From: Vicinamibacterales bacterium
Lineage (GTDB): Bacteria > Acidobacteriota > Vicinamibacteria > Vicinamibacterales > UBA8438
DNA: 64,000 bases
NCBI GenBank assembly: GCA_965206705.1
Contig: CBDBKJ010000004.1
Coordinates: forward strand, 417,810 to 481,809
Direction: 5' to 3'
Shown here: positions 11,403 through 50,997 of the stretch, in pieces
How positions within the stretch are numbered: the first letter of the stretch is position 1
How the letters are laid out: each line of letters opens with the position of its first letter
Translations under genes and position numbers: made by a program
Notes under the pieces: generated by a model
What the model was told of the DNA's origin: nothing
Database searches by the model: none
Seen by the model: the letters and a program-made list of their open reading frames with translations, nothing else

Positions 11403-12356
11403 ATGCGCCGGAGGCATCACGTGAGGTGGATCGGCGTGGCCGCCGCGGTCGTTCTGGCGTCGGGGATCGGCGGACCGGCGGTCGCGCAGACCGACCGGGT
11501 CGTTCAGATGGACACCCTGAACGTCCGGGACGTCCTCTACCACCTCGGGGGCGGCGGCGGGAACGGTCTCGCCCTCATCGACGAGATCAACGGCGGCGTG
11601 GTGTTGATCGACACCAAGCCTCCCGGTTGGGGCGAGGCGGTTCGAGAGGTCGTCGAGCAGGTGACCGACCTCCCGGTGACCACCATCATCAACACCCACG
11701 CCCACGAGGAGCATGCGGGTAGCAACGCCGAGTTCCCCGGCGCGGTCACGATCGTCGCGCATGCCAACGCCCGGGCGGCGATGCTGCGCGACGGCCTGTA
11801 CGCCGAAGACGGTCCGGGGCTGCCCACGACCACGTTCACCGATCGCTTCTCGCTGCTCGAAGACCTCGATCGCATCGAGCTGTACCACTTCGGTCCCGCC
11901 CATACCGACGGAGACGTCGTGGTGGTCTTTCCCGAGAAGGGCGTTGCCTACGTGGGCGGCCTGTTTCCCACGAAGGCGGTCCCGGTCATCGATCTCGAGC
12001 GGGGCGGCAGCGGGCTGGCCTTCCCGGACGCGCTGGATCGCGCCGTCGCGGCGACCGAGGGAGTCGCCCGCGTCATCACCGGGCACGGACCGTTCCCCAC
12101 GACCTACGCGGGCCGGGGGCGCCGGGACCGGGGCGCGGCTCGCGCGTGGAGCGGGTTCCTGACCTGGGACGACCTGGCCGAGTACGCCGAGTTCACCCGG
12201 GACCTCGTGACCGCGGTCGAGCGCGAGTTCTCGGCCGGGAGCAGCGCCGGGGATGCGGCGGCGGCGCTGCAGATGCCGGATCGGTATGCCGGCTACGACC
12301 TGACGGGCCTGCAGGCCGCCGTGGATGCGCTGTACGCCGAGCTGGCCGCGCGCTGA
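11403..12356 (+). CDS. secreted MBL-fold metallo-hydrolase
   Basis: The signal MRRRHHVRWIGVAAAVVLASG is followed by LIDTKPPGW and the metal motif NTHAHEEHAG, then HTDGD. Confidence 0.8.
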   Translation: MRRRHHVRWIGVAAAVVLASGIGGPAVAQTDRVVQMDTLNVRDVLYHLGGGGGNGLALIDEINGGVVLIDTKPPGWGEAVREVVEQVTDLPVTTIINTHAHEEHAGSNAEFPGAVTIVAHANARAAMLRDGLYAEDGPGLPTTTFTDRFSLLEDLDRIELYHFGPAHTDGDVVVVFPEKGVAYVGGLFPTKAVPVIDLERGGSGLAFPDALDRAVAATEGVARVITGHGPFPTTYAGRGRRDRGAARAWSGFLTWDDLAEYAEFTRDLVTAVEREFSAGSSAGDAAAALQMPDRYAGYDLTGLQAAVDALYAELAAR

Positions 12357-12427
12357 CCGACCCGGCTTTCGTTCTTCTCGCGGACGCGCAACGGTTCACG
12401 CAAGCCTTCGATTGGGGATACGCACGC

Positions 12428-13771
12428 ATGACAAGCTCGAAACTGACCGCGGCGCTGGCCTGTGCGGCCTGCCTGGCCGGGGGCGCGGCAGAGGTGGCCG
12501 CCGACGACTGGCCCGAGTTCCGCGGGGCAGGGCGCCTCGGGGTGTGGACCGAGACCGGGATCGTCCGCGCGTTTCCGGACGACGGTCTCAAGGTGCGCTG
12601 GCGCACCCCGATCAAGGCCGGCTACTCCGGACCGTCGGTCGTCGACGGCCGCGTGTTCATCACCGACTGGGAGCCGCAGCAGGGCATGCGCGGGGTCGAG
12701 CGGGCGCTCGCCCTCGACGAGGCGACGGGCGAGATACTGTGGACGCAGACCTGGGAAGCGGACTACGCGGGCATCCAATGGGAGATCGGACCGGGAGCGA
12801 CGCCGACCGTCGACGGCGACCGGGTCTACTTCCTGGGCCGCACCGGCATGCTGTCGGCCCTGGCCGCCGACACCGGCGAGATCCTCTGGCGGAAGCACTA
12901 TGGCGAGGACTACGGCGTCGACCGCATGCAGTGGGGCTTCGATTGGGGCTTCGCCAGCGCCCCGCTCGTCGACGGCGAGCGGCTCATCTGCCTGGTCGGC
13001 GCCTCGCCGGACGCCCGGGTCGTCGCCTTCGACAAGATGACGGGGGAAGAGCTGTGGCGGGCCCTGCCGAGCGAGGCGGATCTCGGGGTGGCGCAGCCCA
13101 TCATCATCGAGGCGGGCGGGGCCCGGCAGCTCATCGTCTGGAACCCCGAGGAGGTCGCCTCGCTCGACCCGGTGACCGGAGAGACCTATTGGCGGCAGCC
13201 GTACATCGTGGGCGGCGCGATGACCGTGGCGGTGCCGGTGCAGGTGGGCGCCAGGCTCTTCTTCACCACGTTCTACGACGGTCCGATGATGCTGACCCTC
13301 AACCAGGACCGTCCGGGGGCGACCATCGCCTGGAAGGGCGGCAGCAACAGCGAGATCCGTACCGAGGGCCTGCACGCGGTGCTTGCCACGCCGATCATCG
13401 ACGGCGGCTACATCTACGGCATCTGCAGCTACGGCCAGCTCCGGTGCCTGGACGCGGAGACCGGCGAGCGCATCTGGGAGACCCAGGAGGCCACGGTGGA
13501 ACGCCGCCGCTGGGTCTCCGGGTTCATGGTCAAGAACCGGGACCGCGTATTCATCAACAACGACCGGGGCGAGCTGATCATCGCCGCGCTGAGCCCCGCC
13601 GGCTACGAGGAGATCAGCCGCACCCAATTGATTGCACCGACCTCCGCCCCCGGCAATCGGCGGGAGCTGCGCAGCGTCAGCTGGGTCCATCCCGCCTACG
13701 CCAACCGGCATGTCTACACCCGGAACGACGAGGAGATCGTCAGTTTTTCGCTGGATGCGGCCGACTACTGA
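12428..13771 (+). CDS. secreted PQQ-like beta-propeller repeat protein
   Basis: ATG at 12428. Signal LTAALACAACLAGGAAEVAA, then DWPEFRG. Contains repeated ..G..LW.. blades (ATGEILWTQTW, DTGEILWRKHY, MTGEELWRAL, VTGETYWRQPY, ETGERIWETQ). Confidence 0.8.
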   Translation: MTSSKLTAALACAACLAGGAAEVAADDWPEFRGAGRLGVWTETGIVRAFPDDGLKVRWRTPIKAGYSGPSVVDGRVFITDWEPQQGMRGVERALALDEATGEILWTQTWEADYAGIQWEIGPGATPTVDGDRVYFLGRTGMLSALAADTGEILWRKHYGEDYGVDRMQWGFDWGFASAPLVDGERLICLVGASPDARVVAFDKMTGEELWRALPSEADLGVAQPIIIEAGGARQLIVWNPEEVASLDPVTGETYWRQPYIVGGAMTVAVPVQVGARLFFTTFYDGPMMLTLNQDRPGATIAWKGGSNSEIRTEGLHAVLATPIIDGGYIYGICSYGQLRCLDAETGERIWETQEATVERRRWVSGFMVKNRDRVFINNDRGELIIAALSPAGYEEISRTQLIAPTSAPGNRRELRSVSWVHPAYANRHVYTRNDEEIVSFSLDAADY

Positions 13772-13871
13772 AGCGGTGGGTGTCCGCACCGACGGGGCCC
13801 GCGGCGTCTTGCGCCCGGTCGGGGAAGTGGACCATCATGCATGTGTCGTGCAGGTGGACGAGGAGAGTGAG

Positions 13872-14924
13872 ATGAACCATCGATATCGCGCTGGGACGGG
13901 TCGGGCGATCGTGATCGCGGTCGCTTTCGGAATGCTGGCGCCGGCCGTCGCGGCCGGGCAGGCCGCGGACGAGTCCGTGCCGCGGACGGCGTGGGGCGCG
14001 CCCGATTTGCAGGGCGTGTGGGACTTCCGCTCCATCACGCCGATGGAACGTCCCGACGAGCTGGCGGACCAGGCGTTTCTGACCGAGGAGGAGGCCGCGA
14101 ACCTGGAGCAGGAGACCGTGGCCCGCAACGAAGACCTCCTGAGTCGTCCCGCCGTGAGAACGACGGTCACCGCGAGCGTGGATCGCGGGGAGGAAGGCGC
14201 CCCCGGCTTCTACAACAACTTCTGGCTCGACCGGGGCACCACCATCGTCGACACCCGGCGCACGTCGCTGGTCGTCGACCCGCCGGACGGGAAGATCCCG
14301 GCGCTGGTGTCCGAGGCGGCCGAGCGGCAGGCGCGGTTGCGCGCGGCGCGGGATGGCGTCGCCAACCACGAGCCGACGCCGGGCGGCTGGGTCGAGGACC
14401 TCGGGGCCAACGGTCTGCAGCTGCGCTGCATCACCGGCTTCAACGCCGGCCCGCCGATGACACCGGGCGGCTACAACAACAACGTGCAGATCTTCCAGAC
14501 CCCCGGCCACGTGGTCCTCCTCAACGAGATGAACCACAACGCGCGCGTCGTCCCCCTGGACGGGCGTCCCGCCATCGACATCCCGCAGTGGACCGGGGAC
14601 TCGCGCGGCCACTGGGAGGGAGACACCCTGGTCGTCGAGACCGGCAACTTCCTGCGCGAGACGAGCTTCCGGTCGGGGTCGGCCGACGCGAACCTGCGTC
14701 TCACCGAGCGCTTTACGCGGGTGTCCCCGCAGGTCCTGATGTACGAGGCGACCATCGACGACCCCACCGTGTGGTCGAGGCCGTGGACCTACGAGGTGCC
14801 GATGGTGTGGAACGACCAGCCGGTCTTCGAGTACGCCTGTCACGAGGGCAACTACGGCCTGTACAACATCCTCGCCGGTGCGCGGGTGGCGGAAGCGGCC
14901 GCCGCGGCCGAGGCGGCGAAGTAG
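13872..14924 (+). CDS. secreted protein of the uncharacterized family, paralog 3
   Basis: ATG at 13872 (MNHRYRAGTGRAIVIAVAFGMLAPAVAAGQ), with the same motif series ending in FEYACHEGNYGLYNILAGAR. Confidence 0.85.
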   Translation: MNHRYRAGTGRAIVIAVAFGMLAPAVAAGQAADESVPRTAWGAPDLQGVWDFRSITPMERPDELADQAFLTEEEAANLEQETVARNEDLLSRPAVRTTVTASVDRGEEGAPGFYNNFWLDRGTTIVDTRRTSLVVDPPDGKIPALVSEAAERQARLRAARDGVANHEPTPGGWVEDLGANGLQLRCITGFNAGPPMTPGGYNNNVQIFQTPGHVVLLNEMNHNARVVPLDGRPAIDIPQWTGDSRGHWEGDTLVVETGNFLRETSFRSGSADANLRLTERFTRVSPQVLMYEATIDDPTVWSRPWTYEVPMVWNDQPVFEYACHEGNYGLYNILAGARVAEAAAAAEAAK

Positions 14925-15011
14925 GTCGGTTTGCAACTGAAGCCGTTTGAATCCCCCCTGAGCGGCCCCGGTGTACGGGTAGCCGCTCATTCTCATCGAG
15001 GTGCAAGGACC

Positions 15012-16028
15012 ATGATCATTCGAACAGTCGCCGTGCTCGCGGGCAGCGCCGTGCTCGCGCTGTCGCTCTCGACCCCGGCCGCCGCCCAGTCGGGAACCGA
15101 GACCTCCGCCATGCGCACCGCCGACGGGCACCCCAACCTCAGCGGTATCTGGGATTTTCGGACCGTGACCCCGCTGGAGCGCCCGGAAGAGTTCGCCGAG
15201 CAGGAGTTCCTCTCCGAGGAGGAGGTGGCCTCGTATGCCGCCGAAAGGGTGCAGTCGAGCAACGCCGACCGGGATCGGGAGGCCAGGAAGCTGGAGACGA
15301 CGGACCGGGGACTGGTGAACGGCACGCGCGAGAGCCGCGACCTCGCCCTCGCCTACAACGATTTCTGGTGGGACCGCGGCGACTCCGTCGTCGAGACCCG
15401 CCGGACCTCCCTGGTCGTCGATCCCCCGAACGGCCGGGTGCCGGCGTTGACGGACGCGGGGGCGGCCCGGGCCGCGGAACGCCTGCGCATCAACCAGCGG
15501 CCGACCGAGGGCCCCGAAGATCGCCCGCTCGGCGAGCGGTGCATCACCGGCTTCAATTCGGGACCGCCGATGCTGCCGGCCGCCTACAACATGAACGTCC
15601 AGATCTTCCAGACCGCCGATCACGTCGTGCTGCTCAACGAGATGGTGCACAACGCCCGGATCATCCCCCTCGACGGCAGTGACCATGGTGCCGTGCCCTT
15701 GTGGACCGGCGACTCCCGCGGCCATTGGGACGGGGACACCCTGGTCGTCGAGACCAGGAACTTCCTGCGGGAGACCAGCTTCCGGAACTCGAGCAGGAAC
15801 CTCCACCTCGTCGAACGGTTCCGGCGCATGAGCGAGGACGTGCTGCTCTACAGCTTCACGGTGACGGACCCGACGACGTGGGCCCGGCCGTGGTCGGTGG
15901 AGCTGCCGATGCGCCAGAGCGATCTCCCGATATTCGAGTACGCGTGCCACGAGGGCAACTACGGCATGGACGGCACGCTGACCGGGGCTCGGGCGATCGA
16001 GAAGGCGGCGGCGAACGATGGGCAGTAG
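15012..16028 (+). CDS. secreted protein of the uncharacterized family, paralog 4
   Basis: ATG at 15012 (MIIRTVAVLAGSAVLALSLSTPAAAQ). Motifs include PNLSGIWDFRTVTPLERP, RTSLVVDPPNGRVPAL, ERCITGFNSGPPM and FEYACHEGNYGMDGTLTGAR. Confidence 0.85.
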   Translation: MIIRTVAVLAGSAVLALSLSTPAAAQSGTETSAMRTADGHPNLSGIWDFRTVTPLERPEEFAEQEFLSEEEVASYAAERVQSSNADRDREARKLETTDRGLVNGTRESRDLALAYNDFWWDRGDSVVETRRTSLVVDPPNGRVPALTDAGAARAAERLRINQRPTEGPEDRPLGERCITGFNSGPPMLPAAYNMNVQIFQTADHVVLLNEMVHNARIIPLDGSDHGAVPLWTGDSRGHWDGDTLVVETRNFLRETSFRNSSRNLHLVERFRRMSEDVLLYSFTVTDPTTWARPWSVELPMRQSDLPIFEYACHEGNYGMDGTLTGARAIEKAAANDGQ

Positions 16029-16359
16029 GGTCGACTGGTACTACCACCGATCCGGTTGAACGAGCTGCGCAAGAGCCTCCAGGTTCCTGGAAGCCAACGG
16101 GATCGACGTCGCGGAACGGGTGCCCGCGAGCCGCAAGCTCGACCGGTCGGACGCCCGCGAGCTGGCAGCGGCGGCGTCGCGCGTCATCGTGGCCAAGGGC
16201 CGGAAGGTCCAGCGCTTCGAGCCGCGCGGCGCCCCCGACGACGCGGTGCTCGACGCGATGGTCGGGGCTACCGGCAACCTGCGGGCGCCGCTCCTGCGGG
16301 TCGGCAAGACCCTGCTGGTCGGTTTCGACGCCGACAGCTACGCCGGCGTGCTCGGCTGA
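16018..16359 (+). CDS. ArsC/Spx/YffB-family thioredoxin-fold protein with an in-frame TGA (16057-16059) at the CxxC position; candidate selenoprotein (UxxC)
   Basis: From ATG 16018 the frame reads MGSRVDWYYHRSG-TGA-TSCARASRFLEANGIDVAERVPASRKLD... and continues into tracked ORF 16120..16359 (..VAKGRKVQRFEPRG..GNLRAPLLRVGKTLLVGFD). The 113-codon length fits the family. A weak SD (gaagg) lies 12 nt upstream of the ATG. Confidence 0.6.
16075..16094 (+). promoter_or_regulatory. SECIS-like hairpin downstream of the in-frame UGA
   Basis: GCCUCCAG[GUUC]CUGGAAGC forms a 5-bp upper stem, a C.A mismatch and 2 more bp. The apical loop starts with G-U. The hairpin base is 16 nt and the loop about 24-26 nt from the UGA. 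Confidence 0.45.
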
Positions 16360-16413
16360 GCACCGGCCGCCGCAGCGCGGTTGACATCACGTCGGCCTCT
16401 GCCTGAGGAGCCC

Positions 16414-17070
16414 GTGGCGAAGTCCCGCGCGGCGACGGCCCTTTGCCGCCGGCTCTTCCCGGCCGTGGTTCTCTGTGGCGCGTTCGCCGGCTGTCGGTTC
16501 GATTCGGGCCCGGCGGCTGGCGGCCCCACCAATCCGGCGCCGGCCGCCGATTCGGCCTTGGCCGCTGTTCCTGCGCCGCAGACAGCCGACTCACGACCGA
16601 TTGAGGGTCCGGAGGGCAACGCTGTCCCCGATGGGCGCGCCGACGTGCCCGAGTCGAGCCGCCCGATTGTCTACCACATCGTGAAGGGCGCCCGTTTCTT
16701 CGACATCCTCGTCGCTCGCATCGGCAACCGCGAGCACGTCGTGCTCGGGGAGACGGACGACATGTGTCTCGATCTCCCGGACCAGCGCGACTTCGACGGC
16801 GACGGCAACCAGGACGCCCTGGTGTTCCGGAGTCCCGCCTGCCGGGGCGACGCGGCCCCCGGCCTGCTCTTCTTCGTGTCCGGCGACATCGCCTTTCGCC
16901 GCTCCAACCCGTTTCCCGGGCATCGCCCCCGCATCGAGCGGTGGAACGGAGGCTGGAGCGTTCTAACCGGCGCGGCCCGGCACGTGTTGCGGGACGGGCG
17001 CGCGGTACCGGTCGAGCGGATCGAGCCCGCGGGGGCGCAGGCACAGGCGCCCCGTCAATCTCGTCGTTGA
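16414..17070 (+). CDS. hypothetical lipoprotein
   Basis: GTG at 16414 follows the RBS gaggag. It has the lipobox-like sequence VVLCGAFAGC and an FG-GAP-like DFDGDGNQD motif. No confident family assignment. Confidence 0.6.
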   Translation: MAKSRAATALCRRLFPAVVLCGAFAGCRFDSGPAAGGPTNPAPAADSALAAVPAPQTADSRPIEGPEGNAVPDGRADVPESSRPIVYHIVKGARFFDILVARIGNREHVVLGETDDMCLDLPDQRDFDGDGNQDALVFRSPACRGDAAPGLLFFVSGDIAFRRSNPFPGHRPRIERWNGGWSVLTGAARHVLRDGRAVPVERIEPAGAQAQAPRQSRR

Positions 17071-17201
17071 CACGGCCAGCCGGTGTCAGGCATGTTGTCG
17101 AGTTGGCGCGCTGATTCGCCGGCTGGCGGCTGGTCGATACGATGTCCGGTGTTGACGGGCGAGCCCGCGCTTTGTCATCCTGCAGGCCCGTTGTATTCGC
17201 C

Positions 17202-18416
17202 ATGACTCCGTCTTCCACCGCGGCGCAGGCCCTGAGCGCCCGGCGCCCGGCCGAGGCGGTGGCCGCTCCGGGGCGGCACTTCCTCGTGGGGTGGACGGCG
17301 TCGTGGCTCGCGGTCGGCGTCGTGTTCGCGGCCGGCGTGTCGTTCGGGGCCGGCGCCGACCTCGGCCCCGTCCTGCGGCTGAGCGTGCTGTTCGCCGAGG
17401 TCGTCGGATACAGCGCGTACATCTCGGCGCGGCTCGTGTTCCCGCTCCTGGCGCGGTTGCCGGGGGCGCTGCGCCTGGCGCTCGACGCGTTGATCGTGGT
17501 GTCGGGCACGATCTTCGGCTCGATCCTCGTCATCCTCGTCGATCCCTTCTACGTTCTCGCGCAGCCCCGGGCCGCCCTCCTCCTCGTCGCGTTCAACGCG
17601 GTGCTCGCGGCGGGGGTCGCGGTGGCCCTCGGCGCCTACGACCGGATGCGCCGCCAGATCGAGGCGTCCTACCGCATCCTCCGGGAACGGGACGCGCTCG
17701 AGCGCGAGCTGACCGTGGCCCGCGAGGTGCAGCGCGAGCTGCTGCCGCGTGAAGCGCCCCCCATCCCGGGGCTGGAGCTGGCGGGGGTCTGCCGGCCCGC
17801 CATCGCGGTGGGCGGCGACTACTACGACTACCTGCTGGACGGGGACGGCCGGCTGGGTCTGGTCATCGCTGACGTGTCCGGCAAGGGGGTGCCCGCGGCC
17901 CTCCTCATGGCGAGCCTGCAGGCTTCCATGCGCAGCCGCTTCCCCACCGCGGGGACGCCGGGATCGCTCGCGGCGGGTCTGAACGAGGCGCTGTTCGGCG
18001 CGTCCTCCGCCGCGCGCTACGCCACCGCGTTTCTCGCCACCTTCGATCGCGAAACCCGCCGCATGTCCTACACCAACGCCGGGCACCTGCCGGCGATCCT
18101 CGTCCGGGAGGGCGACACCGAGCGTTGCGAGGATGGCGGCATGCCCATCGGGTTGTTCGAGGGCGCGGCCTACGAGACCGGCGCCCTGACCCTGGCCCCG
18201 GGAGACCTGCTGGCGCTGTTCACCGACGGCGTGACCGAGTCGCCGGCGCCGGACGGCGAAGAGTTCGGGGCGGCGAGGCTCGCCGATCTGCTGCGCGCCC
18301 ACCGCGCGCGTCCCCTCGAGGCGGTCATCGACACCGTGTTCGACGCCCTCCTGCAGTGGAGCGGCCCCGTCGACGCCCACGACGACGTTACCCTCGTCCT
18401 CGCGAGGGTGCGGTGA
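17202..18416 (+). CDS. membrane-anchored PP2C-family (SpoIIE/RsbU-type) serine phosphatase
   Basis: Has N-terminal TM helices, then LPREAP..GLELAGVCRPAIAVGGDYYDY..VIADVSGKGVPAALLMA..DGVTE..DDVTLV. The start is uncertain (ATG 17142 or 17202). Confidence 0.8.
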   Translation: MTPSSTAAQALSARRPAEAVAAPGRHFLVGWTASWLAVGVVFAAGVSFGAGADLGPVLRLSVLFAEVVGYSAYISARLVFPLLARLPGALRLALDALIVVSGTIFGSILVILVDPFYVLAQPRAALLLVAFNAVLAAGVAVALGAYDRMRRQIEASYRILRERDALERELTVAREVQRELLPREAPPIPGLELAGVCRPAIAVGGDYYDYLLDGDGRLGLVIADVSGKGVPAALLMASLQASMRSRFPTAGTPGSLAAGLNEALFGASSAARYATAFLATFDRETRRMSYTNAGHLPAILVREGDTERCEDGGMPIGLFEGAAYETGALTLAPGDLLALFTDGVTESPAPDGEEFGAARLADLLRAHRARPLEAVIDTVFDALLQWSGPVDAHDDVTLVLARVR

Positions 18417-22096: not shown

Positions 22097-23829
22097 CTAG
22101 CCCGGATTTCTCACAGCTCGTCGAGATCGGGCCTGATGCGGCGCGGCTGGGGTTCCGGGCGGCCATATCGGACGCCGGCGGTGGTCTGGATGTGGGCGAC
22201 GACGTGCGCGTGGCGCCAAAATCGGCCCGGTTAGCACACCACACGCGAAAGGACCCCGTGTCCCCCTGCAGTCGTGAACGTATGCCGCCACCTGGCCGAC
22301 CGTCAGGCCGGGTCGGGCGGCGAGCGCAAACGTTGAGCGGCCATGATGAACAGATCGGCGTCGGGCGCCAGCTCGGACAGCGCCACCCAGATGCACCGCA
22401 CGGTGACGCGGACGTGGGCGCCGATCTTGAGCAGCCGCAGCCGTAGCGTATCGCATTGGGCGCGGGCGAGCCGGGTGCCCGCCAGCCCCCGGTCGCGGAG
22501 CTGCTGGAGCAGGACATAGGCCAACGTGGCCCAGTACAGGCGCAGTTGGTTGGCGCGCAGCGTCGCACTGCTGGTCCGGTCGGCAAACAGCGCCAGTTGC
22601 TGTTCCTTGATGCGGTTCTCCATGTCCCCGCGGGCACAGTAGAAATCCTCATACAACGCCTGCGCCGCCAAGGTGTCCGGCGGCAGCGATGTCACCACGA
22701 AGCGTGGATTGGCGCCCGCGGGCAGATGCTCGGCCTTGCCGACCACCCGGCGCTCCCGGCTCCAGCTCTTGCGCGTGCGATAGCGGAAGTCCGCAAACAC
22801 CCGCGCGGCCACCCCGGTTTCCTCGCACTGCGCCTGGGCCTGCGCCAGTTCGGGCGCGATTTGTTCCTTCAACCGAACGTTCTTCGCCAAGCCGATGACG
22901 TAGTCCACCGCATGCTCTTCGCACCAGTTCAGCAGCTCGTCTCGGCAGAACCCCGAGTCCCCCCGAACCACGATGGGGACCGACGGCCATGCCTGCCGCA
23001 CCCGCTCCACAATCCGCGCCAACTCGTCCACCACGCCCGCCGCCCCGTCGATGTTCGAGGGCCGCAACCGCGAGCAGAGCACATGCGCCCCGCAGAAGAT
23101 ATACAGAGGCAGATAGCAGTAGTTCCCGTAGTACCCGTGGAAGAACCGTCCTTCCTGCTGACCGTGCAGCGGATCGTCCGTCGCATCGACATCCAGCACG
23201 ATGCGCGCCGGCGGCGTCGGGTGCGACTCGATGAACACGTCTACCAGCAGGGCGTCGAGCGCCGCTTCGTCATAGGTCACCTTCTTGTACCGGTCAGCCT
23301 CGGCGTCCTTCGGCCCGACCAGTTCCAGCCGGTTCAGCGTGCTCTTCCCCGCCAGCGCGGCCCCCCGGTCTGACGGCCGCACCCGGTTCTCGCCCGTCGG
23401 GTCCGCCTTGCCCACGACAGCCGCCAACAGCGGGTCCCGCCGCAGGGTGTCATGGTCGTTCAGATCTTCGTAGCCCAACGCGACGGCCATCACACGCTGG
23501 GTCACCAAGTCCTCGACCGTGTGTTCGATCAAGCTTGGGTCCCGGTAGTCCTGGAAGCACTGCGCCGCGCGTCGGCACACGTCGGTGCACCTTTCAACCG
23601 CCCGCAGCAGCAATGCCCCGGCATTGGAAGTGATCGTTCCGCCCTCGAAGCTGGCGACCAGCCGACGACGACCGACCCGAGGAAACTCCAGCTGGATTGG
23701 TGGCTTACTTCGCGTACACTGTGTCGACAAGGGGCTGCCTCCGTGCATGGCTTGAAGTTATTGCCACAACAACACTTTACGCCATTACGGGCAGTCTCTT
23801 GTTCACCACCGGTGAGAAATCCGGGCTAG
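22097..23829 (-). mobile_element. IS1380-family insertion sequence, copy A (IS proper 22101..23825, flanked by CTAG direct repeats)
   Basis: Perfect terminal IRs cccggatttctcac / gtgagaaatccggg, with CTAG at 22097-22100 and 23826-23829. It is identical to copy B except for one substitution (t at about 22232 versus a at about 51131). Confidence 0.9.
22303..23748 (-). CDS. IS1380-family DDE transposase
   Basis: 481 aa. GGTITSNAGALLLRAVE.., FFHGYYGNYCYLPLYIF, ..VRGDSGFCRDELLNWCE.. are typical of IS1380-family transposases. Confidence 0.9.
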   Translation of the reverse strand: MHGGSPLSTQCTRSKPPIQLEFPRVGRRRLVASFEGGTITSNAGALLLRAVERCTDVCRRAAQCFQDYRDPSLIEHTVEDLVTQRVMAVALGYEDLNDHDTLRRDPLLAAVVGKADPTGENRVRPSDRGAALAGKSTLNRLELVGPKDAEADRYKKVTYDEAALDALLVDVFIESHPTPPARIVLDVDATDDPLHGQQEGRFFHGYYGNYCYLPLYIFCGAHVLCSRLRPSNIDGAAGVVDELARIVERVRQAWPSVPIVVRGDSGFCRDELLNWCEEHAVDYVIGLAKNVRLKEQIAPELAQAQAQCEETGVAARVFADFRYRTRKSWSRERRVVGKAEHLPAGANPRFVVTSLPPDTLAAQALYEDFYCARGDMENRIKEQQLALFADRTSSATLRANQLRLYWATLAYVLLQQLRDRGLAGTRLARAQCDTLRLRLLKIGAHVRVTVRCIWVALSELAPDADLFIMAAQRLRSPPDPA

Positions 23830-25258
23830 ACGGCGAGGCCGGGCAGCGGGCCGCTGACGTCGATGAAGTCGCCGCGCTGCCCGCGCGCGTGCTTCAGGCC
23901 GACTTGGTCGACGTCCAGCCCCATCGCGCCGGCGACGCTCACCAGCATGTGCTGGTGGGGGAGGCCCGAGAACCGCGTGGCGCCGCCCGTCAGGACCTGG
24001 GACGGCACGCGCATCTCCGCCGGCGTCTCGTGCGGCCAGTACAAGTAGCGCCCGGTCCTGAGATAGCAGTAGTTCCCGTAGTACCCGTGAACGCCCAGGC
24101 GCCGCCGATGAGCACCGGACAGTAGTGACAGTATCCGTGCCACCCGTCGCCGAGCTCCGAGCCCCAGACGATGAGGGTGTTGTCCATGACCGACTGTCCG
24201 CCGGCGTCCGGAATCGCCTCGAGGGTGCTCACGAGGCGTGCGACCTGGCTGGCGTGACGGCGGACGTAGTCGCTCATCGCGCCGTACTTGGCCGGGTCCT
24301 CGTGGATGTAGTGCGCGATGCCCTTGTGCACCTTGTCGCTGATGTGGTCGGCGCCGAACTCCGCCGTGGGCATCTCGCCGAGCGACAGCGAGACCACCCG
24401 GGTGATGTCGCAGCTGAATGCGGCCGCGATGACGTCGGTGAAGGCGTCGAACCGCAGGTCGTACCGCTCGAACTCCGCCGCGGGGCGCGCCGGGGCCTCG
24501 CAAGCGAGGGTGGCGAGGCTCTCCAGCCGATGACCCAACCGCTCGACCAGTCCGAAATGCGTCTCGAGCCGGGCGCGTTCGCCGGCCGTGAAACGGGGCG
24601 CCAGCTCTCGATACTCGCGATAGGCGAAGTCCAGCGTCGTGCGGCGGCGTCTGCCCACCGCGTCGCCGGACGAAGCCGGCCCGAAGACCCGGTTCCAGGC
24701 CCCCAGCGGCGACCGCTCGGCCGGCAGCCGCATGCCCCCCAGGCTGTAGCTGATGGGCCGGCCCGCCTCGAGGGCGGCGTCGAGCGACAGCTCGAGCGAG
24801 GGAAGCCGGTCGGCTCTCGCGATGCGCGCGGCGACGAGCTGATCGAGGGACGGCGATACGGCCCGCGTATCCCGCGCCGCGAAATCGGCGTTGTCGCCGG
24901 TCCAGGCGTGAATCCAGCCCCGGTCGTGGCGGTTGCCCCCGGTGTCGAGCTCGGCGGTGGCGAGCGACAACCCATCGAGCGCGAGCAGGCGCTGCCGGTG
25001 CGCGTGCAGCGGGGCGAGCGGCCGGCTGAGGTCACCCTCGGCGAGCGGGGCCAAGTCGAGCGTCCAGGGCCCGGCCGTGGACCGGCCGGGGGGCTGCATC
25101 CGCCAGGCCTCGTAGGGCCAGCCGTGGCAGTGGCTGATGACGACGAGGCGCCGCGGCGGCAAGGCGGCCGGGGCCAACGCCCGCAGCGCGGCATCGGGAA
25201 TCGCCGCGCCGAGGGCGGTGAGTCCCCCCAACTCCAACAGGTGTCGTCGCGAGATCAT
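23826..25258 (-). pseudogene. DUF1552-family protein gene, frameshifted by a 29-nt insertion
   Basis: Starts at ATG 25258 (MISRRHLLELGGLTALGAAIP) and reads to ..GDGWHGYCHYCPVLIGGAWAF. A 29-nt insert then shifts the frame. The C-terminus RTGRYLYWPHETP..FIDVSGPLPGLAV* continues in ORF 23826..24503. Confidence 0.8.
24061..24089. repeat. 29-nt segment identical to an internal part of the IS1380 transposase gene (23111-23139 and 52010-52038)
   Basis: agatagcagtagttcccgtagtacccgtg occurs at 24061-24089 and inside both IS copies, where it encodes HGYYGNYCYL. Removing it restores the DUF1552 frame (..AWAF-RTGRY..). Confidence 0.9.
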
Positions 25259-27101
25259 TCGTGCCCTCCCGGCGCGCCGCCCGGCCGCCGTCGGAAGAGG
25301 TCGCTGCCGACAATCGAGGCCAGCAACGTCTTGATGGAATCGTCGGCGCGGAAACCGGCCTGCAGCGCGTCGAGCCCGGGGGGCGCCGCGTCGAGCCGAT
25401 CGCCGAGGGCGTAGCGCGCCCAGTGCAGCACGTAACAGTCCCTCACCCGGCCGCTGGCCGCAAGCTGGCGCGCGAAGTCGACGCCGTCGGTGAACGTGAT
25501 CCGTTCCCCGCCGGCCAGCGCCAGCGATCCGCTCGCATCGACCGGCTGCCCGTTGTCGTGCGACCGCCACCGGCCGACAGCATCGTAGTGCTCGAACGCG
25601 AATCCCGGCGGGTTGATCGTCCGGTGGCAGGTGTTGCAGGTCCCCGGACGGGTGGCGGAGGCGGTGCGCTCGCGGTTGGTCCTCTCCGCGGCGAGGGTGT
25701 CGGGGGGCAGCGCCGTCTCCGCGCCCTGGACCGGCGTGCCGAGGTGCATGCAGGCGAGCCGCTCGAGCACCCGCACGCCGCGCAGGATGGGCCCCGGCTG
25801 CACCGCGTAGGCGCCGAGGGCGAGCACCGACGGCAGGGTCAGCACCCCCGCCCGCTCCTCGGAAGGGAAGCTCGCCGGATAGAGGGTCAGAGGCTTCCGT
25901 CGCCCGATCGAGGCCACCACGAGATCGATCGTCCGGGTCACCTCGGGGCCCTCGATGCGCTTCGCGTTCTCTCCGTAGATCGGCGCGGTGGCCTCCGACA
26001 TGTAGCCGTGGTGGTCGGTCATCAGGGCCGTGAACGTGCCGGCGCCGTCGAAGAGGGTCTGTTCGACGAACAGCTCGGTCTCGATCTTCGGCGAGTGGCG
26101 CACCGGCCCCATGATGGCCGGCCACTCCACGTCGTCGTCGCGCGCGGTGGCGAGGCGCGGCTCGACCCCGAACAGCGGCCCGAAGGCCCGGCGGCCGGCG
26201 CGACCAGCAGGACGTCGTCGGTGCCGAGCCACTGGTGGTGGAAGCGCACAAGGGCGGGGCGGGCCTTCGGGTCGTCGAGCATCCGGCGGGCCTGGGCCTC
26301 GATGCCGGCCCGGGTGGCGAGCTCGCCCGTTTCCGCGGCCGCGAACAGCGCCTCGTCGGGCATCGAGTCCCACAGGAAGTAGGAGAGGCGCGACGCCAGC
26401 TCCCACCGGCTCAGGGGCGCAGAGACGGCGCCGTCCGCCCCCCGGCGCGGGTCGATTCTGAAATGGAACGTGGGCGTCTGCAGAACCCCGGCCACCGTCA
26501 GCGCGACCGCCTCGTCGAGCCGTCCGGCCGCCGCATTGGCCTGCCAGAAGCGCTCGAGGCGGCGGATCTCCCCGGCGTCGAGAGGCCGGCGGTAGGCCCG
26601 CCGGGCGAAGCGCTCGAGGCTCGTCCACGCACAGTTCCTTTGCTCGGCGGCGGGCAGGGAGGTCCACGCCTCGCAGGCGAAAAACGCCGGCGAGACCAGG
26701 GCGAACGATGCGAAGTGCATCGCCGCGAGGTGCAGCTCTTCCACCTGGTAGGACGACGGCGCCTGCCCCTGCGCGATGCCCGCGAATCCGTTGGAGCCGG
26801 CCTCCGTCGGAAACCGCCAGGGCCAGACCGGCGGGGGCGGCGGCGCGAAGACGCCCTTGCTCGGCTCGCGCCGGGGACTGATGCGGTCGGCGAGGGCGGG
26901 ACGCGCCGGCCACTGGTCGCCGTCCCGGGGAAAGCCGAGCAGGTCCGCGATGGTGTTGTTGTACTCGGCCGGGGTCAGGGCCAAGGGGGCGGCCACGGGG
27001 GGAGCGCCCACGGCTGGGATCGTCTGGCCGGCGGCGGACCAGGATGCCGCGACCCCGGAAAGAACCGAGGCCAGCGTCGCCGCTGCGATTCGGTTTCTCA
27101 T
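25255..27101 (-). pseudogene. DUF1592/DUF1588/DUF1595-family protein gene (usual partner of DUF1552), with one frameshift
   Basis: ATG at 27101 (MRNRIAAATLASV..) reads to ..VRFHHQWLGTDDVLLV in ORF 26022..27608. Homology continues as ..RRAFGPLFGVEP..CNTCHRTINPPGFAFEHYD.. in ORF 25255..27198. The shift is near 26190-26205. The stop overlaps the DUF1552 start (ATGA). Confidence 0.75.
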
Positions 27102-27589
27102 GACGCGCGTTCTGCACTCGTCCGGAACGCCGGCGGCCCAGTGCGCGGCAGCTTCCGCGTCTCCGCTCCTTGAATCCGACCCGAGCGTTCCCGCGCATTT
27201 TGAACTTGGCCGCGCGGGCGTCAAAAAGGTTACCACGCGGCGTCGGGGCAACTCCCGCCCCTCCGCACGCAGGCGCGAGCCGAGGCGATTCGCGACCGCG
27301 TCGTGAGCCGGTTCTCGGTCGGTCTGCGCATTGCTGTCCGAGGGAGAGGGAAACGACCGGTCGGTCTCACTCTCGCTGCGTATCGAGAATAGCCGGCCCG
27401 TGTAATATGCAGCGCGACGCCTAGCTAGACCCGGCATCGACCACGCATCGCAGCCCCGGACGTCATGGAGTTGCGCCATCGTGGCGCGGCGTGACCTGGA
27501 CTCGCCATGAGGGAGGCTCGCCGAATGAGGACGGCGGGGGAGCACGGTCCGCCCCGGCCGGCGGCGGCAGTGGCGAGGACCCGCCGGCC

Positions 27590-27775
27590 CGCGCCGACGG
27601 TTCGACAATCGACATGATCATCTTCTACACGCCCGAGGCGAGGCGGCGTTCACGAGGCGATCTTTGCGGGTCTCTTCGGCCTGAAACGGCTGCTCCTCAG
27701 CGGCAACAACCTGACCACCCTGCCAGAAGGGCTCTTTGCCGGTCTCGATAACCCGCAAGCGCCTATTTTTCAGTG
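27590..27775 (+). pseudogene. mosaic of short gene fragments: a metalloprotease-like piece and a leucine-rich-repeat piece in different frames
   Basis: ..DGSTIDMIIFYTPEARR.. resembles the conserved start of reprolysin/M12B-like bacterial zinc proteases. FAGLFGLKRLLLSGNNLTTLPEGLFAGLDN is a canonical LRR unit. Neither lies in a complete ORF. Confidence 0.4.
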
Positions 27776-32182: not shown

Positions 32183-32608
32183 AGGGCCGCACGGAGCTGC
32201 AGGGCCACGATTCTATCGGGACGATCTCCGCCCGGGACCGCCGCCCGCGGGGCGCCGGCGGAGCCGCCGCAGGCGCCATATCGCGAGCGCAACCCCGGCC
32301 AGCAACAGCAGTGTCGTCGGCGATCCGAGAATCGGCATCATGGATGGACGTCCCGGGCGTCGTCTCGATGTCCGGATTGTCTCACGCCCGGATGGATCGC
32401 ACGGGAAGGCGTCAAGCAACCCGGGCGGTAGGCGCGTCCGCGTCCCGGTGCAGGTGGCCGAATCTGCCGCCACGTGCAATCACGTTGGCATCGAGGTGTT
32501 ATTTTCATATGATCCGAACGTTTTCAGTGATGGAGCCCGATAGCCTTCCGTTCTACAAGCACCCCGGAGCCTTTGGGGGCAACTGCGTCGCGAATGCGGA
32601 TTTCAACC

Positions 32609-34060
32609 ATGGCTGACCTGTCGATGTCGTGTCCCGACCCCGTTGAGCACCACAGTGATTACCTCGAGCGCCGCCAGCGGTTCTCCGAGTTTCTCACCGT
32701 ACTCGAGTCCCGGACCACGGGAGGAACGAAGATCAGCGTCCTGGAAGCCGCGGTGGCGGCCGCGGTGGAGTGTCTGGTTCCGATTCGCGGCGCCCGACTG
32801 ACGACGGCCCCCGCTCCGCCGCTGGCCGCGCGCGAGGGGCCGGCCGTGTCGTCTCTGCGGTTCCCGGTGCCGGTTCCCTCGCGCGCGAATCTCGCCCTCG
32901 AGGTGAAGATCGATTCCAGCTTCACGCTCGATGCATGGGACCGGCAGGCGCTGCGCCAGGCGGCCCGGGTCGTCGGCCTGCTGATCGCGTCCCGGAACCA
33001 AGCGTCACCGCTCCCTCCGGGTCAGCCGCCCGATCCGGCCGAGCCGCTGATCGGAACGAGTGGTCCGATGCGCCGGTTGCGGTACGAAATCCAGCGTGTG
33101 GCGGTGACCGATTTCACGGTCCTGATCGAAGGAGAATGCGGTTCCGGCAAGGAACTGGTGGCGCGCCAGGTGCATGGCCTCAGTCGACGGCATGCGGGAC
33201 CCTTCGTCGCCGTGAATTGTGCCGCCCTGGTCGAGACGCTGCTCGAAGCCGAACTGTTCGGCATCGAAGACCGGGTCGCGACCGGGGTGCGAGCCCGCCG
33301 CGGCAAGTTCGAGCTGGCCGATCAGGGCACCCTGTTCCTCGACGAGGTCGCCGACCTGTCGCCGGCCGCCCAGGCCAAGCTGTTGCGGGCGATTCAGGAG
33401 CTGTCGGTGGAGCGGGTCGGCGGACACGAGGCACGAGCCGTGGACATCCGCATCGTCGTCGCCACGAACCAGCGGCTCCGCGGTCTGGCGCAGGCCGGGC
33501 GGTTTCGCACCGATCTCTACTATCGCCTGGCCGGCGTCGAGCTGAACGTGCCGCCGCTTCGACAGCGCCGCGAGGACATCATGGAGCTCGCCCACTATTT
33601 CCTGGGCCGGCATCATGGACTGCGCCGGCTGACCCTGTCGGAGAGCGCCGCCGATGCTCTGCGAACCCACGACTGGCCGGGCAACGTGCGGGAGCTGCAA
33701 CGGGTCGTCGAACGGGCCGTGGCCCTGGCGACCAGCGACGTCATCGGCCTGCCGGATCTGCCGGCCGAGCTGACCCGAGACCACGCAGCGGTGCTGCAGC
33801 CGTCGGTTGCCCGCGCCGAGTCGATGCGCGCGTGGGGGAGCCGCTATGCACGGCTGATGCTGGAGAAGTGCGGCCACAACAAGCGGCGTACCTGCGAGGT
33901 GCTGGGCATCAGCTACCATACGCTGCAGTCGTACCTGCGCCACCCGGTCTGCGCCACCGGCGAGCGCCAACGGGACCGGCCGCCCCGGGACGTCGAGGAC
34001 GGCGATGCGGGACCGGTCAAGGGCCGGGAGGAACCACGGCGGGATGACGGTACGTCTTGA
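32609..34060 (+). CDS. AAA+ enhancer-binding-protein-type transcriptional regulator (sensory N-domain, AAA+ domain, Fis-type HTH) with a degenerate GAFTGA loop
   Basis: Walker A GECGSGKE, ..TLFLDEV.., ..RIVVATN.., DLYYRL, WPGNVRELQ and a C-terminal HTH (RRTCEVLGISYHTLQSYL). The GAFTGA position reads ELFGIEDRVATGV. Confidence 0.8.
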   Translation: MADLSMSCPDPVEHHSDYLERRQRFSEFLTVLESRTTGGTKISVLEAAVAAAVECLVPIRGARLTTAPAPPLAAREGPAVSSLRFPVPVPSRANLALEVKIDSSFTLDAWDRQALRQAARVVGLLIASRNQASPLPPGQPPDPAEPLIGTSGPMRRLRYEIQRVAVTDFTVLIEGECGSGKELVARQVHGLSRRHAGPFVAVNCAALVETLLEAELFGIEDRVATGVRARRGKFELADQGTLFLDEVADLSPAAQAKLLRAIQELSVERVGGHEARAVDIRIVVATNQRLRGLAQAGRFRTDLYYRLAGVELNVPPLRQRREDIMELAHYFLGRHHGLRRLTLSESAADALRTHDWPGNVRELQRVVERAVALATSDVIGLPDLPAELTRDHAAVLQPSVARAESMRAWGSRYARLMLEKCGHNKRRTCEVLGISYHTLQSYLRHPVCATGERQRDRPPRDVEDGDAGPVKGREEPRRDDGTS

Positions 34061-34199
34061 CCCCTTGCAGGTCCCATAGTACGTTTACGCCGTTTTGCGG
34101 CGTCCTGGCGGCTGGTCGCGGCCACGCCCGCAGTCGGACCTCTCTCCGCGAGCCGGCGTTCCCGGCAGGGCTGCCCGCCACGGCCAACCTGATCGTGTC

Positions 34200-35315: not shown

Positions 35316-35321
35316 GCAGCG

Positions 35322-35693: not shown

Positions 35694-35704
35694 GCGGACG
35701 CCGC

Positions 35705-38578
<2,874 letters not shown>

Positions 38579-50975: not shown

Positions 50976-50997
50976 CTAGCCCGGATTTCTCACCGGT
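50976..50997. mobile_element. solo IS1380 end: CTAG plus 18 nt matching the right-end IR in inverted orientation, abutting copy B
   Basis: ctagcccggatttctcaccggt equals the reverse complement of the IS right end (..accggtgagaaatccgggctag). It extends 4 nt beyond the sequence shared by both IRs, so it is the right-end type. Confidence 0.7.

What the first reader, a model, noticed from the sequence alone, without database searches (positions are those of the whole stretch)
16018..16359. ArsC/Spx-like thioredoxin-fold gene with an in-frame TGA at the CxxC cysteine, followed by a SECIS-like hairpin: candidate UxxC selenoprotein
The ORF track only reports a 79-aa ORF starting at GTG 16120. The same frame is open back to ATG 16018 except for one TGA at 16057-16059. 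The full reading is MGSRVDWYYHRSG-[TGA]-TSCARASRFLEANGIDVAERV..VAKGRKVQRFEP..GNLRAPLLRVGKTLLVGFD.

This is the normal architecture and length (113 codons) of ArsC/Spx/YffB-family proteins. In that family the N-terminal beta-strand is followed by a CxxC or Cxx(S/C) redox motif. Here the TGA occupies the first Cys position, giving UxxC. Sixteen nt after the TGA a hairpin (16075-16094, GCCUCCAG[GUUC]CUGGAAGC) presents a G-U-initiated apical loop about 24-26 nt from the UGA. That geometry matches what is described for bacterial SECIS elements.

Cys-to-Sec replacement in thioredoxin-fold redox motifs, including ArsC-like proteins, is established for other bacteria. This particular gene would be missed by standard callers.
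Basis: partly seen in the sequence, partly recalled or inferred. Interest (0 to 1): 0.75.

Follow-up and report, generated by a model that had tools for sequence, protein, structure and literature searches.

The report
Known ArsC-like selenoprotein gene, miscalled short
This is a real selenocysteine-encoding gene for a small thioredoxin-fold redox protein, but it belongs to a selenoprotein family that is already published and curated, so it is an annotation correction and not a discovery.

Summary
One frame runs from ATG 16018 to the stop at 16357-16359 (113 codons), with a single in-frame TGA at 16057-16059. A hairpin follows at 16075-16094.

With U read as C, the protein scores 109 bits against NCBIfam NF041106 "ArsC family (seleno)protein" (cutoff 85). 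All 80 best relatives, from Acidobacteriota, Myxococcota, Gammaproteobacteria, Binatia, Spirochaetales and others, carry TGA in the same column. Full-length homologues have Cys there.

The hairpin meets all four published bacterial SECIS criteria: 4-nt loop GUUC, 7 bp, 23 nt from the UGA, and -8.0 kcal/mol. It is 96% paired across 81 sequences and shows compensatory changes and invariant wobble bases. The loop G is lost in all three Cys-form controls.

Coding conservation starts sharply 13 codons upstream of the TGA. TGA is otherwise the window's main stop codon.

The motif U-T-S-C aligns with the C-T-S-C redox switch of Spx. The likely function is a selenylsulfide/selenol oxidoreductase with an unknown substrate. 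Arsenate reductase and Spx membership both fail their curated cutoffs.

Not testable here: selA, selB, selC and selD in the rest of the genome (none lie in the window).

The family was reported in 2008 and is listed in a 2026 review under NF041106. Novelty: already known. Interest: low.

The parts
16018..16359 (+). Full coding sequence of the ArsC-like selenoprotein: 113 codons including Sec14, plus the terminal TGA
   Evidence: Translation. NCBIfam NF041106 scores 109.3 bits (cutoff 85), covering residues 5-108. Orthologues match residues 1-113.
16018..16020 (+). ATG start codon. It lies 13 codons upstream of the Sec codon and overlaps the end of the upstream gene, whose TAG is at 16026-16028.
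   Evidence: Across 81 sequences, codon -13 is M in 64 and V in 9. Conservation and 3-base periodicity begin exactly there, with none further upstream.
16057..16059 (+). In-frame UGA read as selenocysteine (U14), the first residue of the U-T-S-C redox motif
   Evidence: TGA in 81/81 sequences. Cys (TGT/TGC) in full-length homologues. Aligns with C10 of the Spx C-T-S-C motif.
16066..16068 (+). TGC codon for Cys17, the resolving cysteine of the UxxC motif
   Evidence: TG[C/T] is invariant in 81/81 at positions 10-12 after the U of UGA. Aligns with Spx C13.
16075..16094 (+). SECIS hairpin inside the coding sequence. The stem pairs 16075-16082 with 16087-16094 and has one C.A mismatch (16077 x 16092).
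   Evidence: Folding gives -8.0 kcal/mol. Pair counts: 96.2% paired, and compensatory changes at two pairs. RNAalifold recovers the same helix.
16083..16086 (+). Apical loop GUUC. G16083-U16084-U16085 are invariant in the family.
   Evidence: Positions 27-29 are G, U, U in 81/81, although position 27 is a wobble base. The G is absent in all three Cys-form homologues.
16273..16290 (+). Codons for the invariant G-N-L-R-A-P motif (residues 86-91), the family signature. It corresponds to GLLRRP of Spx.
   Evidence: These columns are invariant in alignments A1 and A3. Aligned to Spx.
16120..16359 (+). The 79-aa ORF from GTG 16120 that a standard caller would report. It is an artefactual truncation of the real gene.
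   Evidence: Listed. It lacks beta1, the UxxC motif and alpha1, all of which are conserved.
14931..16028 (+). Context: upstream gene for a signal-peptide protein with no known family. Its stop overlaps the selenoprotein start, so the two are probably co-transcribed. A paralogue lies at 13632-14924.
   Evidence: No Pfam, NCBIfam or PDB hit. Synteny is kept in L001-L006, and the family is adjacent in L058, L063 and L012.

Best explanation
The gene at 16018-16359 encodes a 113-residue cytoplasmic thioredoxin-fold protein of the ArsC/Spx/YffB superfamily. It is a member of NCBIfam NF041106, 'ArsC family (seleno)protein'. Its active site is U14-T-S-C17.

During translation, the hairpin at 16075-16094 acts as a bacterial SECIS. 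It presents a G-U loop 23 nt downstream of the UGA. SelB carrying Sec-tRNA(Sec) binds the loop and delivers selenocysteine to UGA 16057-16059, in competition with release factor 2.

The finished protein most likely cycles between a selenol/thiol state and an intramolecular selenylsulfide (U14-C17). U14 sits at the N-terminal cap of helix alpha1 and would be the attacking nucleophile. That makes the protein a thiol-disulfide-type oxidoreductase or redox sensor with an unknown substrate.

Shown here: the reading frame, family membership, the Sec/Cys pairing, the conserved and covarying SECIS, and the fold of a Cys homologue used as a proxy.

Inferred: actual Sec insertion in this organism, the selenylsulfide chemistry, and the physiological role.
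For: - Family membership: NF041106 scores 109.3 bits against a cutoff of 85, E = 1.3e-31.
- Sec/Cys pairing: 80/80 related loci from at least six phyla have TGA at the same codon. Full-length homologues have Cys there. The homologues showing 'W' are also TGA.
- Coding upstream of the TGA: conservation with 3-base periodicity starts exactly 13 codons upstream. W, R and G are invariant while their wobble positions vary freely.
- Hairpin conservation: 96.2% paired against 28-36% for slid controls. Pair 33:48 is GC 42, CG 15, GU 6, AU 2, UG 2. There are 21 double-change cells, and 0 of 500 shuffles reach that number.
- RNA-level constraint: wobble positions 24, 27 and 33 are invariant in 81/81, while wobble positions outside the hairpin vary.
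- SECIS criteria (quoted from PMC13188914): loop 3-9 nt, stem 4-16 bp, G in the first two loop positions followed by G or U, spacing 16-37 nt, MFE <= -7.5. All are met by the window: 4 nt, 7 bp, GU, 23 nt, -8.0.
- Cys-form controls: the loop G is lost in 3/3 and the stem is degraded in 2/3.
- Standard genetic code: TGA is the normal stop for 26 of 40 confident genes in the window.
- Purifying selection: against the close orthologues L001-L005, synonymous codon differences outnumber non-synonymous ones about 2:1.
- Fold: a profile of the family aligns end to end with Spx, and UTSC falls on CTSC. The AF2 proxy model (pLDDT 90.3) places the CxxC at the N-cap of alpha1 after beta1. The top structural matches are Spx, ArsC-related proteins, YffB and glutaredoxins.
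[quoted passage not shown] Acidobacteria are recorded as having selenoproteins (PMC1794560).
Against: - No tRNA-Sec, SelA, SelB or SelD is present in the 64-kb window. The rest of the genome could not be searched, so Sec decoding in this organism is inferred, not shown.
- The window's SECIS carries a C.A mismatch that its closest orthologues lack (-8.0 against -14.6 kcal/mol). Folded alone, the local sequence is not more stable than shuffles.
- No other in-frame-TGA gene was found in the window to corroborate Sec use.
- Pfam ArsC scores below its gathering cutoff (19.7 against 24). The structural match to Spx/ArsC is only TM about 0.55, so function cannot be transferred from either.
- Gene neighbourhood is not conserved across phyla and gives no clue to the substrate.
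Confidence: 0.9

Rival explanations
1. The gene is intact in sequence, but this organism has lost the Sec machinery. Translation then stops at UGA 16057, and the locus is a very young pseudogene.
For: No sel genes and no tRNA-Sec in the window. The window's SECIS stem is uniquely weakened by a C.A mismatch compared with its six closest orthologues.
Against: The frame, start codon, UxxC motif, invariant loop GUU and all family-invariant residues are intact. Mismatches at the same stem pair occur in 12 of 79 distinct family members. Synonymous changes exceed non-synonymous ones against orthologues L001-L005. The hairpin still passes the -7.5 kcal/mol criterion.
Confidence: 0.05
2. The UGA is decoded, but as an amino acid other than Sec. 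One route is Cys insertion by a tRNA-Sec-like tRNA(Cys) (selC*) or by a suppressor allo-tRNA of the kind described in Acidobacteria and Deltaproteobacteria. Another is a reassigned genetic code.
For: PMC5389517 reports tRNA-Sec-like tRNAs that can act as opal suppressors, and allo-tRNAs in Acidobacteria. Some pipelines translated homologues with W at this position.
Against: TGA is the commonest true stop in the window (26 of 40 genes), which excludes reassignment. selC* genes were reported in anaerobic Firmicutes, Thermodesulfobacteria, Nitrospirae and Proteobacteria, not in Acidobacteria. A strictly conserved SelB-type hairpin with a GU loop is the signature of canonical Sec insertion. No such tRNA is in the window.
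Confidence: 0.03
3. The TGA is a nonsense mutation or a sequencing error in an ordinary CxxC gene, and the hairpin is coincidental.
For: A single-base change from TGC or TGT gives TGA. The isolated 54-nt segment folds no better than shuffles.
Against: The same TGA is present in 80/80 independent genomes from several phyla. The hairpin covaries. Wobble positions in the loop and stem are invariant. Cys-form genes lack the loop G.
Confidence: 0.01
4. The real product is the 79-aa protein from GTG 16120, and the upstream 100 nt are a non-coding leader.
For: It is the only ORF that a stop-to-stop caller reports, and many database entries are called this way.
Against: The upstream 13 codons and the stretch from 16060 to 16119 show protein-level conservation with 3-base periodicity across phyla. 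The 79-aa product would lack beta1, the redox motif and alpha1 of the fold. Cys-form homologues are full length.
Confidence: 0.01

Closest known systems
NCBIfam NF041106 'ArsC family (seleno)protein' (ArsC_rel_Se_1). In the literature: 'Arsenate reductase-like protein, UxxC' in PMC13188914, and probably 'Arsenate reductase 2, cd03032, UxxC' of the GOS selenoproteome (PMC2398784).
   Same: Scores above the curated cutoff over the full model. Shares the U-x-x-C motif, the length of about 113 aa, Cys-containing homologues, and a SECIS directly downstream of the UGA.
   Different: Nothing of substance. This copy has one extra stem mismatch in the SECIS. In Vicinamibacterales it sits behind two uncharacterised secreted paralogues.
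Spx / MgsR redox-sensing RNA-polymerase-binding regulators (PDB 1z3e, 6gho; TIGR01617)
   Same: Best sequence and structure match among solved proteins. The tetrapeptide is the same apart from U for C: C-T-S-C in Spx, U-T-S-C here, at the same position after beta1. The G-x-L-R-x-P motif is shared.
   Different: TIGR01617 scores 31 bits against a cutoff of 75. TM is only about 0.55. The proxy model has a beta-hairpin (residues 55-68) where Spx has its helical subdomain. Spx is a Firmicutes regulator with Cys, not Sec. RNAP alpha-CTD binding was not tested.
R773/glutaredoxin-coupled arsenate reductase ArsC (TIGR00014, Pfam PF03960), including its Sec form 'Arsenate reductase, UxxS' from the Sargasso Sea (PMC1088965)
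   Same: Same superfamily fold, with the nucleophile at the first position of the motif after beta1. A Sec-containing branch exists.
   Different: The motif here is UxxC, not UxxS. Pfam ArsC is below its gathering score (19.7 against 24). TIGR00014 is absent from the NCBIfam hit list at E <= 1. No ars operon genes are nearby. Arsenate reduction is therefore not supported.
Bacterial SECIS consensus model (bSECISearch; E. coli fdhF type)
   Same: A stem-loop within the coding sequence directly after the UGA, with a small apical loop whose first bases are G-U. Spacing of 23 nt lies within 16-37, the stem of 7 bp within 4-16, and the MFE is <= -7.5 kcal/mol.
   Different: No lower stem or bulged U could be demonstrated: extension pairs do not covary. 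No Rfam family matches it. That is expected, because bacterial SECIS elements are not captured by one covariance model.

Membership tests
NCBIfam NF041106 ArsC family (seleno)protein | HMM score at or above the curated cutoff (85 bits) over the full model | tested here: met
   109.3 bits, E = 1.3e-31, residues 5-108 on model positions 1-107 of 107 (with U entered as C).
NCBIfam NF041106 ArsC family (seleno)protein | Sec (TGA) or Cys at the first position of the xxC motif after beta1 | tested here: met
   TGA in the window and in 80/80 loci. TGT or TGC in the Cys forms.
Bacterial selenoprotein gene (general) | In-frame UGA aligned with Cys in homologues, with conserved coding sequence on both sides | tested here: met
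Bacterial selenoprotein gene (general) | SECIS hairpin meeting the bSECIS model: loop 3-9 nt, stem 4-16 bp, G in the first two loop positions, 16-37 nt spacing, MFE <= -7.5 kcal/mol | tested here: met
   Criteria quoted. The window has loop GUUC, 7 bp, 23 nt and -8.0 kcal/mol. Covariation.
Bacterial selenoprotein gene (general) | Sec machinery in the same genome: selA, selB, selC (tRNA-Sec) and selD | not testable with these tools
   None in the 64-kb window.
Bacterial selenoprotein gene (general) | Selenium actually incorporated at the UGA position | not testable with these tools
   Needs 75Se labelling or mass spectrometry.
Pfam PF03960 ArsC family | Score at or above the gathering threshold (24 bits) | tested here: not met
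   19.7 bits, although the alignment spans model positions 1-77 of 79. Superfamily relationship is supported by the profile-to-PDB hits to Spx, YffB and ArsC-related proteins.
Arsenate reductase ArsC (TIGR00014, R773 type) | Match to the equivalog model, CxxS-type motif, and ars operon context | tested here: not met
   TIGR00014 is not among the NCBIfam hits at E <= 1. The motif is UxxC. The neighbours are unrelated to ars genes.
Spx/MgsR regulators (TIGR01617) | Score at or above the cutoff (75 bits) | tested here: not met
   31.2 bits. The CxxC position is shared, but TM is only about 0.55.

The most novel reading that the evidence does not exclude
In Vicinamibacterales the selenoprotein may work with the two uncharacterised paralogous signal-peptide proteins encoded directly upstream (13632-16028). 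These have no Pfam, NCBIfam or PDB match and end in a conserved C-terminal FEYACHEGNYG motif. The selenoprotein's start codon overlaps the second gene's stop, and the same family lies next to the selenoprotein gene in three distant genomes (L058, L063, L012). If the link is functional, it would define a new redox system and give this orphan selenoprotein family its first substrate or partner.
Probability: 0.1. Interest if true: 0.45.

Novelty: already known. Interest (0 to 1): 0.15.

Why it matters
It matters mainly for annotation. The gene should be called as a 113-residue selenoprotein with U at residue 14, not as a 79-aa hypothetical protein. Most public homologues (79-99 aa calls) carry the same error.

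It also implies that this Vicinamibacterales-like acidobacterium uses selenocysteine.

The 81-sequence comparison gives an unusually clean family-specific SECIS, with invariant G-U-U in the loop, one strongly covarying pair, and decay of the element in Cys forms. That could serve as a search model.

The biochemical role of the family remains unknown, but that is a known gap and not a new finding.

Tried and rejected
- Single-sequence folding of 16057-16110 and 16040-16130 gave z-scores of +0.9 and -1.1, which is uninformative.
- Rfam at gathering thresholds found only tRNA-Glu and no SECIS or tRNA-Sec family.
- ARAGORN found no tRNA-Sec in the window or in 60 related loci.
- Exact-sequence look-ups to identify the source contig failed for the 79-aa ORF and for the SpoIIE protein.
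- A codon-position GC screen for other in-frame-TGA genes in the window returned only gene ends abutting same-frame neighbours and an antisense frame.
- Possible lower-stem extensions of the SECIS (positions 16-18 with 39-42) do not pair consistently.
- Gene-neighbourhood clustering across 81 loci gave no common partner. The commonest neighbour was an SRAP peptidase in 14 loci, with no evident link.
The Cys homologue P0017 (61% identical) was used as a proxy instead.
- The upstream paralogue has no PDB relative by sequence.
- Arsenate-reductase and Spx assignments were considered and rejected on curated cutoffs.
Full report
**1. The observation**

Translating window 16018-16362 on the + strand gives MGSRVDWYYHRSG*TSCARASRFLEANGIDVAERVPASRKLDRSDARELAAAASRVIVAKGRKVQRFEPRGAPDDAVLDAMVGATGNLRAPLLRVGKTLLVGFDADSYAGVLG*. 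That is 113 sense codons with one internal TGA at 16057-16059 and a terminal TGA at 16357-16359.

The mechanical ORF list reports only the 79-aa ORF from GTG 16120. The ATG at 16018 overlaps the last codons of the upstream gene, whose TAG is at 16026-16028.

The hairpin GCCUCCAG[GUUC]CUGGAAGC occupies 16075-16094.

Folded on its own, the region is not more stable than shuffled sequence (z = +0.9 for 54 nt and -1.1 for 91 nt). The single sequence therefore cannot settle the matter, and the decisive evidence is comparative.

**2. Family membership**

With the TGA entered as Cys, the protein matches NCBIfam NF041106 'ArsC_rel_Se_1, ArsC family (seleno)protein'. The score is 109.3 bits against a curated cutoff of 85 (E = 1.3e-31), over the whole 107-position model.

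Other models all fall below their cutoffs:
- Spx/MgsR TIGR01617: 31 bits against 75.
- Pfam ArsC PF03960: 19.7 bits against 24.
- The true arsenate reductase equivalog TIGR00014 does not appear at all.

**3. The Sec/Cys pair**

A search of 5.8 billion proteins returned 879 relatives. Most are called as 79-99 aa fragments covering only 70-87% of the query, which is the expected signature of genes truncated at a TGA.

The few full-length relatives have G-C-T-x-C at the TGA column, or G-W-T-x-C. The DNA of one 'W' homologue shows that its codon is TGA.

A scan of one genome per species found 587 relatives, and the best 80 loci were kept. They come from Vicinamibacterales and Vicinamibacteria (91-95% identical, the closest group), Marinacidobacterales, Myxococcota, Gammaproteobacteria, Binatia, Spirochaetales, Opitutales and Actinomycetota. 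Every one of the 80 has TGA at exactly this codon.

**4. The upstream 13 codons are coding**

Counting back from the TGA across 81 sequences, per-position entropy is about 1.9 bits at all three codon positions up to codon -14. At codon -13, which is M in 64 sequences and V in 9, it drops sharply. From there the pattern is three-periodic:
- W at codon -7, R at -3 and G at -1 are invariant in 81/81.
- The wobble positions of R and G stay free (1.15 and 1.69 bits).

Against the close orthologues L001-L005, synonymous codon differences outnumber non-synonymous ones about 2:1 (for example 12 against 5 for L005). In the more distant L006 the counts are 17 and 19.

TGA is also the commonest genuine stop codon in the window, used by 26 of 40 confident genes. 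The genetic code is therefore standard, and this UGA is a local exception.

**5. The SECIS**

The 81 sequences align without gaps from 12 nt before the TGA to 57 nt after it. The consensus is UGA-AC.....UG......GAGCGUCCA-AGUUYN-UGGACGC.

Wobble positions inside the element are frozen, while wobble positions outside it vary freely:
- Position 24 is C in 81/81.
- Position 27 is G in 81/81.
- Position 33 is G in 81/81.

For the 7-bp helix (alignment columns 31-37 paired with 44-50):
- 96.2% of cells are standard pairs, against 28-36% when the 3' partners are slid by 1-3 columns.
- 21 cells carry changes on both sides, and 0 of 500 shuffles reach that number.
- Pair 33:48 cycles through GC 42, CG 15, GU 6, AU 2 and UG 2, with 12 distinct sequences unpaired.
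- Pair 31:50 shows GC 76 and UA 2.

Pair 33:48 links the synonymous third base of an Ala codon to the third base of an Asp/Glu codon. The covariation therefore crosses the protein code. RNAalifold recovers the same helix independently.

The published bacterial SECIS model is quoted from the 2026 review PMC13188914. It requires:
- a 3-9 nt apical loop on a 4-16 bp upper stem;
- a G in the first two loop positions, usually followed by G or U;
- 16-37 nt between the UGA and the loop;
- MFE <= -7.5 kcal/mol.

The window has loop GUUC, 7 pairs, 23 nt spacing and -8.0 kcal/mol, so it meets all four. All 81 sequences have the loop G, and 71 of 81 pass the energy criterion.

The window's stem is weaker than that of its closest orthologues (-14.6 kcal/mol) because of a synonymous GAG-to-GAA change at 16092. 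Mismatches at this same pair occur in 12 of 79 distinct family members, so one is evidently tolerated.

**6. Negative control**

Three Cys-containing full-length homologues were fetched as DNA and examined:
- The two with TGC keep only 4/7 and 5/7 stem pairs, and their loops lack the G (CCUUCC and CAUUCC).
- The one with TGT keeps 7/7 stem pairs but has the loop G mutated to A (GAUUCC). It looks like a recent Sec-to-Cys conversion with a decaying SECIS.

The RNA element is therefore tied to the TGA and not simply to the protein sequence.

**7. Protein fold and likely chemistry**

A profile of the family aligns end to end with Spx (1z3e, E = 1.3e-8). It also matches YffB, ArsC-related proteins and glutaredoxins. 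The window's U14-T-S-C17 falls exactly on Spx's redox-switch C10-T-S-C13, and G-N-L-R-A-P falls on GLLRRP.

The window protein could not be submitted for structure prediction because of the U-to-C edit. I modelled the 61%-identical Cys homologue P0017 instead. The model has pLDDT 90.3 and the order beta1 (4-9), loop, alpha1 (15-26). This places the CxxC at the N-cap of alpha1, the classic thioredoxin-fold active-site position.

Foldseek returns Spx, ArsC-related proteins, YffB and glutaredoxins first, but with TM only about 0.55. The model has a beta-hairpin (55-68) where Spx and ArsC carry a helical insert. The family is thus a divergent branch of that superfamily.

The best-supported mechanism is a selenol/thiol to selenylsulfide redox cycle, with U14 as the nucleophile. 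This rests on established knowledge of CxxC and UxxC thioredoxin-fold proteins and is an inference, not something tested here. An arsenate reductase function is not supported: the motif is wrong, the equivalog model does not hit, and there is no ars context.

**8. Genomic context**

The neighbours are:
- Upstream: a PQQ-like beta-propeller gene (12146-13771), then two paralogous signal-peptide genes (13632-14924 and 14931-16028).
- Downstream: an unknown ORF (16381-17070), a SpoIIE-type phosphatase (17142-18416), and a LytS/LytTR-type two-component pair.

The two paralogues have no Pfam, NCBIfam or PDB match.

This arrangement is kept in the six close Vicinamibacterales loci. The upstream family also lies next to the selenoprotein gene in three distant genomes, L058, L063 and L012.

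Across all 81 loci there is no common neighbour. The most frequent is an SRAP peptidase, in 14 loci. The selenoprotein has no signal peptide, so a direct partnership with the secreted upstream proteins is doubtful.

**9. What could not be shown**

The window holds only a tRNA-Glu. None of the roughly 45 proteins scanned with Pfam is SelA, SelB or SelD. No second in-frame-TGA gene was found.

The source contig could not be identified. No related locus carries a nearby tRNA-Sec.

Sec decoding in this particular organism is therefore inferred from two things: the intact, selectively maintained gene and SECIS in this lineage, and the record of selenoproteins in Acidobacteria (PMC1794560).

**10. 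Comparison with what is known**

Sec-containing ArsC-like proteins were first reported from the Sargasso Sea as 'arsenate reductase', UxxS, 14 sequences (PMC1088965).

The GOS analysis then split them in two (PMC2398784):
- 'Arsenate reductase 2', cd03032, UxxC, with 42 Sec and 238 Cys sequences.

The 2022 and 2026 reviews list 'Arsenate reductase-like protein, UxxC', and the 2026 review gives NF041106 as its model. NCBI already names members 'ArsC family (seleno)protein' (P0084).

The finding is therefore a correct identification of a member of an already described and curated selenoprotein family.

**11. Verdict**

- Observation: confirmed.
- Interpretation: supported, with about 0.9 confidence that this is a functional Sec-encoding gene.
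- Novelty: already known.
- Interest: low (0.15).

Its value is in correcting the annotation and in indicating that this Vicinamibacterales-like genome uses selenocysteine.

Noticed in passing
window 22098-23829 and 50997-52728: Two direct copies of a 1732-bp insertion sequence, 99.94% identical (one mismatch). Each encodes a 484-aa DDE_Tnp_1_4 transposase on the minus strand. This points to recent transposition, and recombination between the copies could delete the 29 kb between them.
   Followed up: partly
window 13632-14924 and 14931-16028: Tandem paralogues, about 51% identical, encoding signal-peptide proteins with a conserved C-terminal FEYACHEGNYG motif. They have no Pfam, NCBIfam or PDB match. 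The second gene overlaps the selenoprotein start codon. The family also neighbours the selenoprotein gene in L058, L063 and L012.
   Followed up: partly
L081 154-492 (Logan ERR11443736 contig): A Cys-form (TGT) homologue that still has a perfect 7/7 SECIS stem, but with the invariant loop G changed to A. It looks like a recent Sec-to-Cys conversion with a decaying SECIS.
   Followed up: partly
window 23993-26410 (-) and 26025-27617 (-): A DUF1552 (HXXSHH) protein and a DUF1592/DUF1595/DUF1587 (PSD) protein lie side by side, as the stop-to-stop frames scanned. The short high-GC3 ORFs at 23830-25810 on the + strand look like antisense artefacts of the first gene.
   Followed up: no
window 32531-38578: A sigma-54 activator is followed by the glycine-cleavage genes gcvT, gcvH and gcvP. 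The gcvT stop TGA at 35313-35315 is followed in the same frame by the gcvH start, which my screen first flagged as an in-frame-TGA candidate. It is an ordinary gene boundary.
   Followed up: yes
proxy model of P0017, residues 55-68, equivalent to window 16183-16224: The AF2 model shows a beta-hairpin where Spx and ArsC have a helical subdomain. The best PDB matches reach only TM about 0.55. The NF041106 family may therefore be structurally distinct within the ArsC/Spx superfamily.
   Followed up: partly
window 16381-17070: The 229-aa ORF directly downstream has no family hit. It is in the same reading frame as the selenoprotein gene and is conserved (64-77% identity) in the Vicinamibacterales loci.
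   Followed up: no
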